DNA of 64,000 nt from Escherichia coli (GTDB taxonomy: Bacteria > Pseudomonadota > Gammaproteobacteria > Enterobacterales > Enterobacteriaceae): the NCBI RefSeq assembly GCF_044647545.1, contig NZ_CP172818.1; one strand, 5' to 3'. Under the pieces are notes generated by a model that saw only the letters and a program-made list of their open reading frames with translations, had not been told where the DNA came from and did not search any database. Numbering within the stretch: position 1 is the first letter of the stretch; every line of letters starts with the position of its first letter. Of the stretch, positions 14,848-19,498 are shown piece after piece. Both the position numbers and the translations under genes were made by a program.

Positions 14848-15906
14848 TTATTTGCGCAAGGCCCGGCAAATCAGATTCGATAGCAACTCAAGCTGATGCG
14901 CCGTTTCCATGTTCAGCCACACATAACCATAGATTGGTGTTTCCACAACCTTCAGGTCATGGTGGTTATTAAGCAACAGACGCAGCTCTTCCACAGCATC
15001 GTTCAATTTTTCCGTATTGGCAAAAACCGGCTGCGGATTACCTTCGTACAGCGCATGAACAAGGCTCAGCAGTATTTGCTGCATCATGTGCTGGGTATCA
15101 CGAAGTTTTTGCGCGTTCAATAACACGAAATGGCTGGGGCGCGTGGCCCAGTATGCATTGATTTGCAACTCCAGCATACAAACCAGATTGCGGTTAATGG
15201 TCTGGATACCTTCATATATCGATTTTGGAATACGGGTTTCTTTGCTGGCGGGCGCAATCAGCCCACGCATTTTCACGGCATCGGTCAGCAGTTTTTGTAG
15301 ATGGCTTTCCAGACGTGGGCGTTCGAGTAAGTTCGGTGAGAATGCAGATTGATAGACCCGATTATACTCGGTCAGACTTTTCGCCAGTTGAATGCGCCAG
15401 TGGATGAACGCCCGTTGTGGCCAGATACCGGTAAACAACATTGCCAGTAAAGAGCCGAGGATCACATCGCCGCTTCGCCATAACGCCGTATCAATTTCAC
15501 CTGTCGGGGAACCCACAACAATTGCCAGCGTCACCCCAATCAATAATCCTTGATACGGTTTCTTGCCCAGCGCCAGCCAACCGCAAAGAAACATCGCCGC
15601 CGCGCACCAGACTAACATCAGCGGTAACGAAATTAACTCCAGTTGCAGAGCGATAAGACCTAAAATCGAACCCAACACCGTACCGCCAATACGTTCGAAG
15701 GCACGAGGGACAACGTTCCCCCAGAACGAGATTGGCCCCATAATCACCACCATGGTGACCAGCGGCCAGGTGCTTTCCGGGATAGTAAACAGGCGGATAA
15801 TGAGAAAAGTGAGCAGGAATGCCAGCGCGACCCGAGTACCATGCACAATGCGGTAATGGCGGTATACCCGGATTTCAAACGGGCTTAATGACTTATCGGC
15901 ACGCAC
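14848..15906 (-). CDS. yeeA: Inner-membrane protein YeeA (FUSC-like putative transporter), 352 aa
   Basis: Multi-pass hydrophobic N-terminal half; size and synteny. Confidence 0.85.
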   Translation of the reverse strand: MRADKSLSPFEIRVYRHYRIVHGTRVALAFLLTFLIIRLFTIPESTWPLVTMVVIMGPISFWGNVVPRAFERIGGTVLGSILGLIALQLELISLPLMLVWCAAAMFLCGWLALGKKPYQGLLIGVTLAIVVGSPTGEIDTALWRSGDVILGSLLAMLFTGIWPQRAFIHWRIQLAKSLTEYNRVYQSAFSPNLLERPRLESHLQKLLTDAVKMRGLIAPASKETRIPKSIYEGIQTINRNLVCMLELQINAYWATRPSHFVLLNAQKLRDTQHMMQQILLSLVHALYEGNPQPVFANTEKLNDAVEELRLLLNNHHDLKVVETPIYGYVWLNMETAHQLELLSNLICRALRK

Positions 15907-16103
15907 GCAGAAACTCCGTAATGAAGATTAAAAGCGCTCATAACACATCTGTCGGCCAGAAGGCGCGCCTCTGAGTTATCCGACGGACATACCGGGAACA
16001 GTGTAATTTCCCGGCAGGAGCGAAAAATTTGAAAGGCGCATCTTACTCTTTTCGCTTTCAAAAAAAGAGTGGTCTTCGCGTCAACACACCGCCCTGAGAT
16101 GAA

Positions 16104-16577
16104 TTAGTGATGTTTTGGCTGCACCGCAACATACATTTCGATATCCCAGTACCCATCTTCCGCGCCATTGTTCAAGTAAACCTCGAAGCAGGGCTTTGGT
16201 AACATTTCATAGGCACTGTCCTGCAAGAGGCTATTAAAGAACTGATACCAGGGTTTAGCAAAATCATCACCGACTACACGAGCCACCGCCACCGCATACT
16301 GACCACCTGAAATTTCTGTCAGAATGACGCCCTCACTGTTTTCGGGGAGCGTAAAGTTATTCGGCACCGTCACGACGGTGTCGCAGCGTAATTTTTCGGC
16401 GGGTGTTTCATCTGGATTGTCGTAATAGACAGCAACCCACTCCTTCGGCACAATATTTTTGCTATCTATCCACATCATCAACTGCTCAAAGCCTTTCTTT
16501 ACCGTCTGTTCCCACGGGCCAACGAGATGGAAACCTGCAACGGTACGTTTATCTTCCTGCTTAATCTCGTAGTTCAT
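16104..16577 (-). CDS. sbmC: DNA gyrase inhibitor SbmC (GyrI), 157 aa
   Basis: [41 protein letters not shown]...; LexA box upstream. Confidence 0.9.
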
Positions 16578-16591
16578 GACGCCCCCATTAA

Positions 16592-16611
16592 TACTGTTTT
16601 TATATACAGTA
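16592..16611 (-). promoter_or_regulatory. LexA (SOS) box tactgtttttatatacagta upstream of sbmC
   Basis: Perfect CTGT-N8-ACAG palindrome 15 bp upstream of the sbmC start. Confidence 0.75.
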
Positions 16612-16695
16612 TAGTTGCAATATTAAAACCACAAGGAATGAGTGTTGATTATGCGAGCAGACTCGCACTCCTGCCAGTCTGCTGCAAAAGAAAGG

Positions 16696-17862
16696 TCAGG
16701 CCTTATGGTGGAAATAATCACTCAGCCGGGAAAACATGCTGCCTTCCCCGACAGATTCCAGGGTAACCAGCGGCCAGTGCGCCACCTGTTTATCACGGTC
16801 GTAAAGTTCAATTTCCCCTACCCGCTGATGGGCGCTAATTGGCGCGGTGAGTTCTTTACCATCAAGGGTATATTTGGCTTTGATATGTGGAATTTCGGCT
16901 TTCGGTAGCACCATCCAGAACTCTTGTTCCGTTCCCAGGGCGATATTTTCTTTATCGCCATACCAGATGCGTTCCGTACCAACCTTTTTCCCACGGTGCA
17001 AAATTTGCACCGTAGTAAAGTTTTGTTGACCCCAACGCAGTAATTTTCTTGCCTCTTCCTCACGACCTTTTGCGCTGTCAGCCCCCATTACCACTGCAAT
17101 GAGACGACGCTGCCCATCTACAGCCGAAGCAATGAGATTAAACCCGGCACCAGAAGTATGACCCGTTTTCAGGCCGTCAACATTCATGGTTTTATCCCAC
17201 AATAACCCGTTACGGTTTTGCTGGGTGATACCGTTCCAGGTGAGGCTTTTCTCACTGTACATATGATAAAACTCGGGCTCGCCGTGGATGATAGCGCGAG
17301 AAAGCACAGCTAAATCATAAGCCGAGCTATGCTGGCCAGGTGCATCCAGACCATGCACTGTTTCAAAATGCGTATCCTTGAGATGCAGCTTCTCGGCATA
17401 GTTGTTCATCATTTCAACAAACTGCCGTTGCCCACCGGCAATATAGTCAGCCAGTGCAACACAAGCGTCATTTCCGGAATCCACAATTAAACCACGGCTT
17501 AAATCACGTACCGATACGCGATCGCCCTCTTTCAAAAACATCAGTGAAGAACCGACAAACACCGGATTATCTTTCGCCCACGCATCACGCCCCACGGTGA
17601 CAATATCGTCTGGCGTAATGCGATGACTATCGATAGCACGATCCACGACATAGCCCGTCATCAGCTTTGTCAGGCTGGCGGGATTGCGCTGTTGATGCTC
17701 ATTACCCGCGGTGAGAATCTGACCGGTGGTGTAATCCATCAATACCCAGGACCCGGCATGAATCTCTGGAGGCTGAGGTGAAAAAGGAATGTTTTCCGCC
17801 GCAAAACCAGACGATAAATTAAAAACGAACAAAGAAGCAGCAATAATAAGACGGCGTTTCAA
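16696..17862 (-). CDS. dacD: D-alanyl-D-alanine carboxypeptidase DacD (PBP6b), 388 aa, probable TTG start
   Basis: SxxK motif PASLTKLMT, SGN motif DSGND; signal peptide; start uncertain by two codons. Confidence 0.88.
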   Translation of the reverse strand: MKRRLIIAASLFVFNLSSGFAAENIPFSPQPPEIHAGSWVLMDYTTGQILTAGNEHQQRNPASLTKLMTGYVVDRAIDSHRITPDDIVTVGRDAWAKDNPVFVGSSLMFLKEGDRVSVRDLSRGLIVDSGNDACVALADYIAGGQRQFVEMMNNYAEKLHLKDTHFETVHGLDAPGQHSSAYDLAVLSRAIIHGEPEFYHMYSEKSLTWNGITQQNRNGLLWDKTMNVDGLKTGHTSGAGFNLIASAVDGQRRLIAVVMGADSAKGREEEARKLLRWGQQNFTTVQILHRGKKVGTERIWYGDKENIALGTEQEFWMVLPKAEIPHIKAKYTLDGKELTAPISAHQRVGEIELYDRDKQVAHWPLVTLESVGEGSMFSRLSDYFHHKA

Positions 17863-18070
17863 CAGCAAACCCTCAGGTGTTTCAAATAGCTGTTCTTTTT
17901 ACGGAAATACTTATGAACTGGCTGGAATAAAGTGCAAGAAAATGTGACTACTATCTCATTTTTATCTGACATGATCTGTTGCCACTCGCTGCCAAATTGT
18001 CGCGCTAAAGCTGATTAGCACGGTGATATTTGATACTCTGGCAGACAGCAGAAATAACGGATTTAACCTA

Positions 18071-19498
18071 ATGATGAATGACGGTAAGCAACAACCTACC
18101 TTTTTCTTTCACGATTACGAAACCTTTGGAACGCACCCCGCGTTAGATCGCCCTGCACAGTTCGCAGCCATTCGCACTGATAACGAATTCAATGTCATCG
18201 GCGAACCCGAAGTCTTTTACTGCAAGCCCGCGGATGACTATTTACCCCAGCCTGGAGCAGTATTAATTACCGGTATTACCCCGCAGGAAGCACGGGCGAA
18301 AGGAGAAAACGAAGCCGCGTTTGCCGCCCGTATTCACTCGCTTTTTACCGTACCGAAGACCTGTATTCTGGGCTACAACAATGTGCGTTTCGACGATGAA
18401 GTCACACGCAACGTTTTTTATCGTAATTTCTACGATCCTTACGCCTGGAGCTGGCAGCATGATAACTCGCGCTGGGATTTACTGGATGTTATGCGTGCCT
18501 GTTATGCCCTGCGCCCGGAAGGAATAAACTGGCCTGAAAATGATGACGGTCTACCGAGCTTTCGCCTTGAGCATTTAACCAAAGCGAATGGTATTGAACA
18601 TAGCAACGCCCACGATGCGATGGCTGATGTGTACGCCACTATTGCGATGGCGAAACTGGTAAAAACGCGTCAGCCACGCCTGTTTGATTATCTCTTTACC
18701 CATCGTAATAAACACAAACTGATGGCGTTGATTGATGTTCCGCAGATGAAACCCCTGGTTCACGTTTCCGGAATGTTTGGGGCATGGCGTGGCAATACCA
18801 GCTGGGTGGCACCGCTGGCGTGGCATCCTGAAAATCGCAATGCCGTAATTATGGTGGATTTGGCAGGAGACATTTCACCATTACTGGAGCTGGATAGCGA
18901 CACATTGCGCGAGCGTTTATATACCGCAAAAGCCGATCTTGGCGATAACGCCGCCGTTCCGGTTAAGCTGGTGCATATCAATAAATGTCCGGTACTGGCC
19001 CAGGCGAATACGCTACGCCCGGAAGACGCTGAGCGTTTAGGGATTGCTCGTCAACACTGCCTGGATAACCTGAAAGTGTTGCGCGAAAACCCGCAAGTAC
19101 GCGACAAAGTTGTGGCAATTTTTGCAGAAGCTGAACCGTTTACACCATCAGATAATGTAGATGCACAGCTTTATAATGGCTTTTTTAGCGACGCCGATCG
19201 TGCAGCAATGAAAATCGTGCTGGAGACTGAACCGCGTAATTTACCGGCTCTGGATATCACCTTTGTTGATAAGCGTATCGAGAAACTCCTGTTCAACTAC
19301 CGCGCCCGCAACTTCCCCGGCACGTTAGATGACAACGAGCAGCAACGCTGGCTTGAGCACCGCCGCCAGGTCTTCACACCCGAGTTTTTACAAGGCTATG
19401 CAGAAGAGATTCAGATGCTGGCGCAGCTGTATGCCGACGATAAAGAAAAAGTGGCGCTGTTAAAAGCGCTTTGGCAGTACGCGGAAGAGATTGTCTAA
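18071..19498 (+). CDS. sbcB: Exodeoxyribonuclease I, 475 aa
   Basis: MMNDGKQQPTFFFHDYETFG... DEDD exonuclease motifs; track ORF trimmed to the internal ATG. Confidence 0.9.
   Translation: MMNDGKQQPTFFFHDYETFGTHPALDRPAQFAAIRTDNEFNVIGEPEVFYCKPADDYLPQPGAVLITGITPQEARAKGENEAAFAARIHSLFTVPKTCILGYNNVRFDDEVTRNVFYRNFYDPYAWSWQHDNSRWDLLDVMRACYALRPEGINWPENDDGLPSFRLEHLTKANGIEHSNAHDAMADVYATIAMAKLVKTRQPRLFDYLFTHRNKHKLMALIDVPQMKPLVHVSGMFGAWRGNTSWVAPLAWHPENRNAVIMVDLAGDISPLLELDSDTLRERLYTAKADLGDNAAVPVKLVHINKCPVLAQANTLRPEDAERLGIARQHCLDNLKVLRENPQVRDKVVAIFAEAEPFTPSDNVDAQLYNGFFSDADRAAMKIVLETEPRNLPALDITFVDKRIEKLLFNYRARNFPGTLDDNEQQRWLEHRRQVFTPEFLQGYAEEIQMLAQLYADDKEKVALLKALWQYAEEIV

What the first reader, a model, noticed from the sequence alone, without database searches (positions are those of the whole stretch)
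16578..16695. Canonical LexA box upstream of sbmC
tactgtttttatatacagta (16592-16611) is a perfect CTGT-N8-ACAG SOS operator 15 bp upstream of the sbmC start, consistent with SOS induction of the gyrase inhibitor.
Basis: partly seen in the sequence, partly recalled or inferred. Interest (0 to 1): 0.2.

Follow-up and report, generated by a model that had tools for sequence, protein, structure and literature searches.

The report
Known LexA operator of sbmC
The 20-base palindrome just upstream of the E. coli gyrase-inhibitor gene sbmC is the already documented binding site for the DNA-damage repressor LexA, so the finding is correct but ordinary; in other strains this same site is a landing pad for an insertion sequence and a group II intron that both home to LexA sites.

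Summary
Confirmed and already known. The window is E. coli chromosome. TACTGTATATAAAAACAGTA lies at 16611..16592 on the minus strand, with 14 nt between it and the ATG of sbmC (16577..16104, minus). The bare CTGT-N8-ACAG pattern is expected 0.69 times per window by chance. The full site is not chance: it scores 24-25 bits on a matrix of 16-17 published LexA boxes, against 12-13 for the next best site and at most 18.7 in shuffles. It is identical to the umuDC operator. A LexA-like site sits 33-43 nt before the ATG in 64 of 66 enterobacterial sbmC loci. Published work reports SOS or UV induction of sbmC. The same intergenic region carries the published Sxy-dependent CRP-S site (16667..16652), so sbmC has at least two inputs.

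Beyond the brief: the 8-bp spacer of this operator holds the ISL3-family element ISEc53 in 263 of 5426 complete E. coli genomes, in both orientations. In unbiased samples, 52 of 67 distinct flanks of this IS clade and 62 of 66 distinct flanks of a group II intron are LexA boxes. I found no paper linking these elements to LexA boxes in the held library.

The parts
16592..16611 (-). LexA operator (SOS box) of sbmC: TACTGTATATAAAAACAGTA. Core CTGT (16609-16606), 8-nt spacer, ACAG (16597-16594).
   Evidence: Identical to the published sbmC and umuD motifs. Conserved in 64 of 66 orthologous loci.
16598..16605 (-). 8-bp spacer ATATAAAA of the operator. It is unoccupied here. In other E. coli strains it is the exact target-site duplication of ISEc53.
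   Evidence: Junctions TACTGT ATATAAAA|IS|ATATAAAA ACAGT in IAI39 and others, in both orientations. Found in 101 + 162 genomes.
16104..16577 (-). sbmC (gyrI) coding sequence, 157 aa, DNA gyrase inhibitor.
   Evidence: NCBIfam NF007451 equivalog, 302 bits. RefSeq annotation of identical DNA.
16582..16586 (-). Shine-Dalgarno sequence. It reads GGGGG in this strain; K-12 and the other 65 aligned loci read GGAGG.
16608..16613 (-). -10-like hexamer TATACT overlapping the left arm of the operator (inferred).
   Evidence: Read from the sequence. Orthologs have TACACT or TATAGT at the aligned place. The published 5' boundary of the UV-induced transcript maps to about 16603 (PMC3009722 Table 8). The consensus scanner did not report this site because the -35 is weak.
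16629..16634 (-). -35-like TTGTGG (inferred). The TTG is conserved. The spacer to TATACT is 15 nt here and 17-18 nt in Citrobacter, Salmonella and Enterobacter.
   Evidence: Conservation profile and alignment.
16649..16670 (-). CRP-S site, 22 bp, with core TGCGA-GTCTGC-TCGCA at 16667..16652.
   Evidence: Conserved at -90 to -95 in most orthologs. Cameron & Redfield 2006 (PMC1635313): sbmC induction requires CRP, cAMP and Sxy, and the promoter works as class I.
16652..16686 (-). Predicted RNA/DNA hairpin right after the dacD stop codon, covering the CRP-S site. Function unknown.
   Evidence: intergenic fold -34.5 kcal/mol, z = -3.5. No T-tract follows, and no terminator was called in the intergenic region.
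16696..17868 (-). dacD (D-Ala-D-Ala carboxypeptidase), the co-directional upstream neighbour.
   Evidence: NCBIfam NF008489, 848.6 bits.

Best explanation
The palindrome at 16592-16611 is the LexA operator of the sbmC (gyrI) promoter in E. coli. A LexA dimer bound to the two CTGT/ACAG arms covers the -10 region and the transcription start and keeps RNA polymerase off. After DNA damage, RecA-stimulated self-cleavage of LexA frees the promoter and the gyrase inhibitor SbmC is made. The same promoter is also activated from a CRP-S site about 56 bp upstream (CRP-cAMP plus Sxy) and is reported to be induced in stationary phase, so LexA is one of several inputs.

Shown here: the presence, statistical strength, position and evolutionary conservation of the site. 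Taken from the literature: LexA and SOS dependence, and CRP/Sxy dependence. Inferred: the exact -10, -35 and start site, and therefore occlusion as the mode of repression.
For: The exact site and its geometry are. It scores 24-25 bits on the LexA matrix, against 12-13 for the runner-up and at most 18.7 in shuffles. No shuffle has a site within 3 mismatches of the consensus. The 20-mer is identical to the published sbmC and umuD boxes.

K-12 has the same 20-mer in a 118-nt intergenic region that differs at 3 positions, all outside the box. A LexA-like site lies at -33 to -43 in 64 of 66 Enterobacteriaceae sbmC loci, and conservation peaks on the two arms. One of the two exceptions supports the link: in L066, where sbmC is truncated, the box is also deleted.

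The 5' end of the UV-induced transcript maps inside the box. Literature: an SOS gene (PMID 8709849); a UV-responsive promoter reporter; the Salmonella ortholog induced 3.55-fold with one box; and the CRP-S/Sxy input.
Against: No binding or expression experiment can be run here. The transcription start is not mapped at base resolution in any paper I could read. The -35 is weak and the spacer to TATACT is only 15 nt in E. coli.

An alternative conserved promoter-like pair, CTGGCA-18-CATAAT at 16677..16648, would put the box at about +31 to +50, which would make it a roadblock rather than an occluder.

The Enterobacter, Lelliottia and Leclercia orthologs have GTG in place of CTG in the left arm, and the Klebsiella and Raoultella orthologs have ATG. 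LexA control may therefore be weaker in those genera. Culyba et al. excluded sbmC from their kinetic analysis because of a biphasic response that suggested another sigma factor.
Confidence: 0.95

Rival explanations
1. The palindrome is a chance AT-rich inverted repeat in a promoter region and is not bound by LexA.
For: CTGT-N8-ACAG alone occurs by chance about 0.69 times per 64 kb.
Against: The score of the full site is far outside the chance range. It is identical to a proven operator, that of umuDC. It is conserved by position in 64 of 66 orthologs across at least 15 genera while the flanking spacer sequence drifts. Published work reports SOS induction.
Confidence: 0.02
2. The box is a real LexA site but acts as a downstream roadblock. 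Transcription would start from the conserved upstream pair CTGGCA-18-CATAAT (16677..16648), with the box lying in the 5' leader at about +31 to +50.
For: The scanner reports this pair at 9 of 12 matches. Both hexamers are conserved across genera.
Against: The CRP-S site lies between these two hexamers, so CRP binding there should repress such a promoter. Published data instead show that CRP plus Sxy activates sbmC by a class I mechanism. The published 5' boundary of the UV-induced transcript falls at about 16603, not about 16641. The conservation of CATAAT may simply be the flank of the CRP site.
Confidence: 0.06
3. The palindrome serves mainly as an RNA or DNA hairpin, for example a dacD terminator or mRNA stabiliser, rather than as a protein operator.
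For: It is a perfect 6-bp inverted repeat downstream of dacD on the same strand. The predicted fold pairs the two arms.
Against: It is an AU-only, weak stem with an 8-nt loop and no U-tract. No terminator was called there and there is no Rfam match. In orthologs the arm bases that are kept are the LexA contact bases CTGT/ACAG, while the outer stem bases vary without compensation, for example TAC/GTG and CAC/GTG.
Confidence: 0.02

Closest known systems
umuDC LexA operator of E. coli
   Same: Identical 20-mer TACTGTATATAAAAACAGTA (PMC3009722 Table 4). It lies close to the start of an SOS gene.
   Different: A different gene and a different promoter context. The sbmC promoter also has a CRP-S site and a reported stationary-phase input.
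sbmC SOS box of Salmonella enterica
   Same: Orthologous gene with one box a similar distance from the start: 21 nt in PMC8072944, and -35/-36 in my loci L014 and L017.
   Different: The spacer sequence differs (ATATAAAT or ATATAAGT), and the outer bases are CAC...GTG in subsp. diarizonae. The reported heterology index of 6.32 implies a weaker site than the E. coli one.
CRP-S (Sxy-dependent) promoters such as ppdD and yrfD
   Same: The sbmC intergenic region carries TGCGA-N6-TCGCA, and sbmC induction needs CRP, cAMP and Sxy (PMC1635313).
   Different: In the material I read, sbmC is the only one of these promoters that also carries a strong LexA box over its core promoter. The Klebsiella and Raoultella orthologs have TGTGA (an ordinary CRP half-site) instead of TGCGA.
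Mobile elements that home to short structured or regulatory repeats, for example REP-targeting IS elements and class C group II introns inserting after terminators. This comparison is from my own knowledge and was not tested here.
   Same: ISEc53, ISKox3 and ISCfr12, and a group II intron, insert at one fixed position of a short palindromic motif found at many genomic sites.
   Different: The motif here is a transcription-factor operator, the LexA box. I found no paper in the held library linking these elements to it.

Membership tests
Gammaproteobacterial LexA (SOS) box | 16-bp core CTG-N10-CAG, usually CTGT-N8-ACAG, with an AT-rich spacer, matching TACTG(TA)5CAGTA | tested here: met
   2 mismatches to the 20-mer consensus. 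24-25 bits on a matrix of published boxes, within the training range of 16.8-26.3.
Gammaproteobacterial LexA (SOS) box | Located over or next to the core promoter of the regulated gene | tested here: inconclusive
   The box ends 15 nt before the ATG and overlaps a -10-like TATACT. The published transcript 5' boundary maps inside the box. No base-resolution start site was available to me, and the scanner did not call this promoter.
Gammaproteobacterial LexA (SOS) box | Conserved at the orthologous promoter in related species | tested here: met
   64 of 66 Enterobacteriaceae sbmC loci carry a LexA-like site at -33 to -43. 45 of them score at least 20 bits, and 40 have a perfect CTG-N10-CAG.
Gammaproteobacterial LexA (SOS) box | Bound by LexA in vitro or in vivo | not testable with these tools
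   Rests on the literature (Baquero 1995, PMID 8709849, title only; SOS-regulon lists) and on identity to the umuDC operator.
Gammaproteobacterial LexA (SOS) box | The gene is induced by DNA damage in a RecA- and LexA-dependent way | not testable with these tools
   Published: a UV-induced transcript (PMC3009722), a UV-responsive promoter-GFP fusion (PMC5999292), and 3.55-fold induction of the Salmonella ortholog (PMC8072944).
CRP-S (Sxy-dependent CRP) site | 22-bp CRP site whose core half-sites are TGCGA / TCGCA (C at position 6, G at position 17) | tested here: met
   TGCGAGTCTGCTCGCA at 16667..16652. Named as CRP-S-like for sbmC in PMC1635313.
CRP-S (Sxy-dependent CRP) site | Induction requires both CRP-cAMP and Sxy | not testable with these tools
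   Published qPCR: sbmC is induced 6-fold by Sxy, with absolute dependence on CRP and cAMP.
SbmC/GyrI protein | Full-length match to the SbmC equivalog model above its cutoff | tested here: met
   NF007451, 302.1 bits against a cutoff of 179, residues 1-157 of 157.

The most novel reading that the evidence does not exclude
The sbmC operator in this window is an unoccupied homing site. Two unrelated mobile elements specifically recognise gammaproteobacterial LexA boxes. One is a clade of ISL3-family insertion sequences (ISEc53, ISKox3, ISCfr12). The other is a group II intron whose 5' end is GTGCGCCGGGAGACCGGT.

The IS inserts in the exact centre of the box and duplicates the 8-bp spacer, which splits the operator. 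The intron inserts one base after the CAG arm, which leaves the operator core intact just upstream of itself. That position could give the intron SOS-inducible transcription when it lies in the sense orientation.

Whether the elements read the DNA sequence directly or use bound LexA as a guide is open. The probability given is for the targeting being real and specific. Whether it has already been described outside the held library I cannot tell.
Probability: 0.85. Interest if true: 0.65.

Novelty: already known. Interest (0 to 1): 0.2.

Why it matters
The finding itself adds nothing new: sbmC has been a documented SOS gene since 1995 and its box is in published tables. Its value is as a correct annotation and as a positive control for the scan.

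The part that could matter comes from related genomes. The same 20 bp is disrupted by ISEc53 in about 5% of complete E. coli genomes, including Nissle 1917 and ATCC 25922. In those strains sbmC is cut off from its LexA operator, and in one orientation from its whole native promoter as well. More generally, LexA boxes in front of umuD-like, dinI-like, dinD-like, colicin and sbmC genes appear to be dedicated insertion sites for an IS clade and for a group II intron. If confirmed, mobile elements would be rewiring or exploiting the SOS regulon at its operators. It would also explain the recurrent umuD-ISKox3 adjacency seen on the resistance plasmids sampled here.

Tried and rejected
1. Bare-pattern significance. 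CTGT-N8-ACAG is not rarer than chance, so I replaced it with the full-consensus and matrix tests.

2. The sigma-70 and terminator scan of 16400-16900 did not call the promoter that overlaps the box. It did call CTGGCA-18-CATAAT upstream and a + strand match inside the palindrome. I treat the + strand match as an artefact of the AT-rich palindrome and the upstream pair as a minor rival. No terminator was called between dacD and sbmC.

3. A sigma-54 reading of the conserved GACTGGCA was checked by eye and rejected, because the GG-N10-GC spacing is not met.

4. An Rfam scan of 15900-18100 at E <= 1 gave no match.

5. I tried to read Zheng et al. 2004 (PMC528793) for the mapped sbmC promoter, but it is not held. 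The class I statement is therefore second-hand, via PMC1635313.

6. The RefSeq K-12 record carries no regulatory features for this region.

7. Other LexA boxes in the window: none. The next best sites score 12.4 bits or less with the 17-site matrix.

8. I considered whether the CTGT/ACAG flanks of the IS might belong to the element itself. I rejected this because the empty site, with one copy of the 8-mer, exists in this window and in K-12, and because the 8-mers differ between sites and are duplicated at each site.

Full report
**Observation**

The window is E. coli chromosome. Positions 16000-17000 are 100% identical to several complete genomes (SMS-3-5, FDAARGOS_497 and others), and 5419 of 5426 complete E. 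coli genomes have a match to them.

The ORF at 16104..16577 on the minus strand is SbmC: NCBIfam equivalog NF007451, 302 bits against a cutoff of 179, full length. Its neighbours are:
- dacD, 16696..17868, minus strand
- sbcB, 18023..19498, plus strand
- yeeA, 14848..15906, minus strand

This is the same order as in K-12.

Read in the direction of sbmC it is TACTGTATATAAAAACAGTA. There are 14 nt between it and the ATG. The stated span 16578-16695 is the whole 118-nt dacD-sbmC intergenic region.

**Is it more than chance?**

It is expected 0.69 times per window, and half of the shuffles contain one. The complete site is:
- It differs from TACTG(TA)5CAGTA at two positions, and no shuffle had a site within three mismatches.
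- I built a symmetrised weight matrix from the 17 LexA boxes printed in PMC3009722 Tables 4 and 7, leaving sbmC out. The site scores 24.95 bits, or 24.3 with the identical umuD box also left out.
- The second-best site in 64 kb scores 12.4-12.8 bits. The best of 200 shuffles scores 18.7. The training sites score 16.8-26.3.
- There is no other credible LexA box in the window.

**Comparative test**

One scan of the species-representative genome collection with SbmC returned 69 loci. Of these, 66 are Enterobacteriaceae loci.
- 64 of the 66 have their best LexA-matrix hit 33-43 nt before the ATG. 45 of these score at least 20 bits.
- In a MAFFT alignment of 66 distinct upstream regions, conservation peaks on the two arms of the box. 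It also peaks on a TGCGA-N6-TC(G/A)CA element about 56 bp upstream with its flanks (GACTGGCA, CATAAT), on a TTG, and on the Shine-Dalgarno sequence. The sequence between these blocks is free to vary.
- The Enterobacter, Lelliottia and Leclercia loci have GTG for CTG in the left arm, and the Klebsiella and Raoultella loci have ATG. Control by LexA may be weaker there.

The two exceptions are informative. Intestinirhabdus alba has a box at -186 instead. Escherichia sp. MOD1-EC7003 (L066) has lost the centre and right arm of the box, and its sbmC is truncated after about 80 codons and fused to the yeeA upstream region. Gene and operator decayed together in that lineage.

**What is known**

- The K-12 sbmC motif is printed as TATACTGTATATAAAAACAGTATCA, next to the identical umuD box, in a UV tiling-array study in which sbmC was among the induced genes (PMC3009722).
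[quoted passage not shown] 1995 (PMID 8709849, cited) and is in standard SOS-regulon tables (PMC6590174).
- Its promoter-GFP fusion responds to UV with a biphasic profile that suggested a second sigma factor (PMC5999292).
- The Salmonella ortholog has one box 21 nt from the start and is induced 3.55-fold (PMC8072944).
- K-12 and the window differ at three intergenic positions, none inside the 20-mer. One change turns the otherwise invariant GGAGG Shine-Dalgarno sequence into GGGGG.

**Mechanism**

The left arm overlaps a -10-like TATACT (16613-16608). A conserved TTG (TTGTGG, 16634-16629) is a plausible weak -35. Its spacer to TATACT is 15 nt in E. coli and 17-18 nt in Citrobacter, Salmonella and Enterobacter.

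In PMC3009722 Table 8, the 100 nt upstream of the UV-induced sbmC transcript begin at AGGCCTGACC (window 16703). That puts the array-defined 5' boundary near 16603, inside the box. LexA would therefore cover roughly -10 to +10 and exclude RNA polymerase. This step is inferred, not shown.

The element TGCGAGTCTGCTCGCA (16667..16652) is the CRP-S site described by Cameron and Redfield. They report that sbmC is induced 6-fold by Sxy, that induction depends absolutely on CRP and cAMP, and that the promoter is class I (PMC1635313). Its centre lies about 58-61 bp upstream of a start at 16598-16601, which fits class I.

A rival reading uses the conserved pair CTGGCA-18-CATAAT as the promoter and makes the box a roadblock in the leader. 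This fits the CRP activation data and the transcript boundary poorly. I give it about 6%.

Nothing in Rfam matches the region. The intergenic RNA is predicted to form a hairpin at 16686..16652 over the CRP-S site (z = -3.5). Its role is unknown.

**Verdict on the finding**

The feature is already known, so its interest is low.

**Beyond the brief: an insertion sequence**

When I searched the 178-nt region against all complete E. coli genomes, about 287 genomes lacked a contiguous match.

In IAI39 the break is a 1885-bp ISL3-family element annotated as ISEc53. It carries a transposase and a ClbS/DfsB-family gene. It sits exactly in the spacer of the LexA box: TACTGT ATATAAAA | IS | ATATAAAA ACAGT. 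The same 8 bp is occupied in the opposite orientation in Nissle 1917, ATCC 25922 and others. Junction-specific queries find 101 genomes with one orientation and 162 with the other.

Other copies sit in other LexA boxes:
- ISEc53 lies in the box TACTGT|ATATACAT|ACAGCA upstream of a dinI-like-umuDC operon on IncF plasmids.
- Its relatives ISKox3 (84.7% identity) and ISCfr12 (87.8%) lie in five further CTGT-N8-ACAG boxes. Four of these are next to umuD or S24-peptidase genes, on IncX3, IncF and IncHI2 plasmids. The fifth, the ISCfr12 site, is next to hypothetical genes on an IncFIB/IncHI1B plasmid.
- In every case the target duplication equals the N8 spacer.
- Only the fimB insertion is in a half-box.

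An unbiased sample used the exact 20-nt IS end searched in metagenome contigs:
- It gave 98 junctions and 67 distinct flanks.
- 52 of the 67 distinct flanks have CTGT exactly 8 nt from the IS end. Chance would give 1 in 256. Most of the remainder are one-base variants.
- 20 of 22 distinct complete insertions have ACAG on the other side.
- Seven of nine reconstructed empty sites score 20-25 bits on the LexA matrix.
- Neighbouring genes tested against Pfam are DinI-like, Peptidase_S24 (UmuD-like), DinD-like, a pore-forming colicin and GyrI-like. These are families known to include LexA-regulated genes.

**Beyond the brief: a group II intron**

A second element behaves similarly. In strain 97.3 a group II intron abuts the sbmC side of the box, and its 5' exon is a different LexA box.

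I searched the intron's 5' end in IMG/VR. 62 of 66 distinct 5' flanks end in CTG-N10-CAG-N|intron, most often TACTGTATATAAAAACAGT|.

I then assembled the predicted sbmC-box/intron junction by hand. It exists at 100% identity (strain 44, two assemblies) and 99.2% (three others) in five E. coli genomes, and the 3' junction exists in seven. There the intron is in the sense orientation to sbmC, directly downstream of an intact operator core.

**Literature and status of the side observations**

Searches of the held library found no paper linking ISEc53, ISKox3 or ISL3 elements, or group II introns, to LexA boxes. That library omits most subscription journals and ISfinder, so prior description cannot be excluded.

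These observations concern related genomes, not this window, which carries the empty site. They are the only part of this case with real potential novelty.

Noticed in passing
window 16598-16605 (empty site); occupied in L071, L073-L075, L077, L079: ISEc53 is a 1885-bp ISL3-family IS carrying a ClbS/DfsB-family passenger gene. It is inserted exactly in the 8-bp spacer of the sbmC LexA box (TSD ATATAAAA), in both orientations, in 101 + 162 of 5426 complete E. coli genomes, including IAI39, CE10, Nissle 1917 and ATCC 25922. The operator is split in these strains.
   Followed up: yes
L076, L078, L080-L087; metagenome loci L088-L187: ISEc53, ISKox3 and ISCfr12 target LexA boxes in general. 8 of 9 hand-checked sites are CTGT-N8-ACAG with TSD equal to N8, and 52 of 67 distinct metagenome flanks have CTGT at -12..-9. 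Flanking genes include DinI-like, UmuD-like, DinD-like, colicin and SbmC. Elements of 1316, 1761, 1872, 1885, 2215 and 4013 bp share the same ends, which suggests different cargo. About ten copies have unequal flanks, as if recombined between boxes.
   Followed up: yes
L072 1091 and 2998; L085; IMG/VR loci L188-L275; E. coli hits H131-H142: A group II intron of about 1.9 kb (ltrA; 5' end GTGCGCCGGGAGACCGGT) is inserted one base after the CAG arm of LexA boxes in 62 of 66 distinct flanks. In 5-7 E. coli genomes it sits in the sbmC box, in the sense orientation to sbmC, leaving the operator core intact upstream of the intron. L229 holds a tandem array of four copies.
   Followed up: partly
window 16582-16586: The sbmC Shine-Dalgarno sequence is GGGGG in this strain. 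It is also GGGGG in E. coli strain 9, Nissle 1917 and strain 97.3. K-12 and the other 65 aligned enterobacterial loci have GGAGG.
   Followed up: partly
window 16652-16686 and 16672-16679: A predicted hairpin lies right after the dacD stop and covers the CRP-S site (z = -3.5). The block GACTGGCA just upstream of the CRP-S site is conserved across genera without a known role. The pair CTGGCA-18-CATAAT looks like a promoter that brackets the CRP-S site.
   Followed up: partly
L066 1380-1800 (Escherichia sp. MOD1-EC7003): The centre and right arm of the sbmC LexA box are deleted (CATACTG|ATTGGAGG). sbmC is cut after about 80 codons and joined to the yeeA upstream region. The operator and the gene are lost together.
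   Followed up: partly
L039, L041, L047, L050, L052-L054, L058-L061 upstream regions: In the Klebsiella, Raoultella and Pluralibacter-type sbmC loci the upstream CRP site has an ordinary TGTGA left half instead of the CRP-S TGCGA. The LexA-like site there has ATG for CTG and lies closer to the conserved TTG. This suggests the promoter was rewired in that branch.
   Followed up: no
L072 (E. coli 97.3) 1-3000: dacD and the sbmC upstream region are missing in this strain. Prophage-like genes (DUF2513, a partial S24 peptidase) adjoin the intron instead. This is consistent with a rearrangement between two intron copies sitting in different LexA boxes.
   Followed up: no
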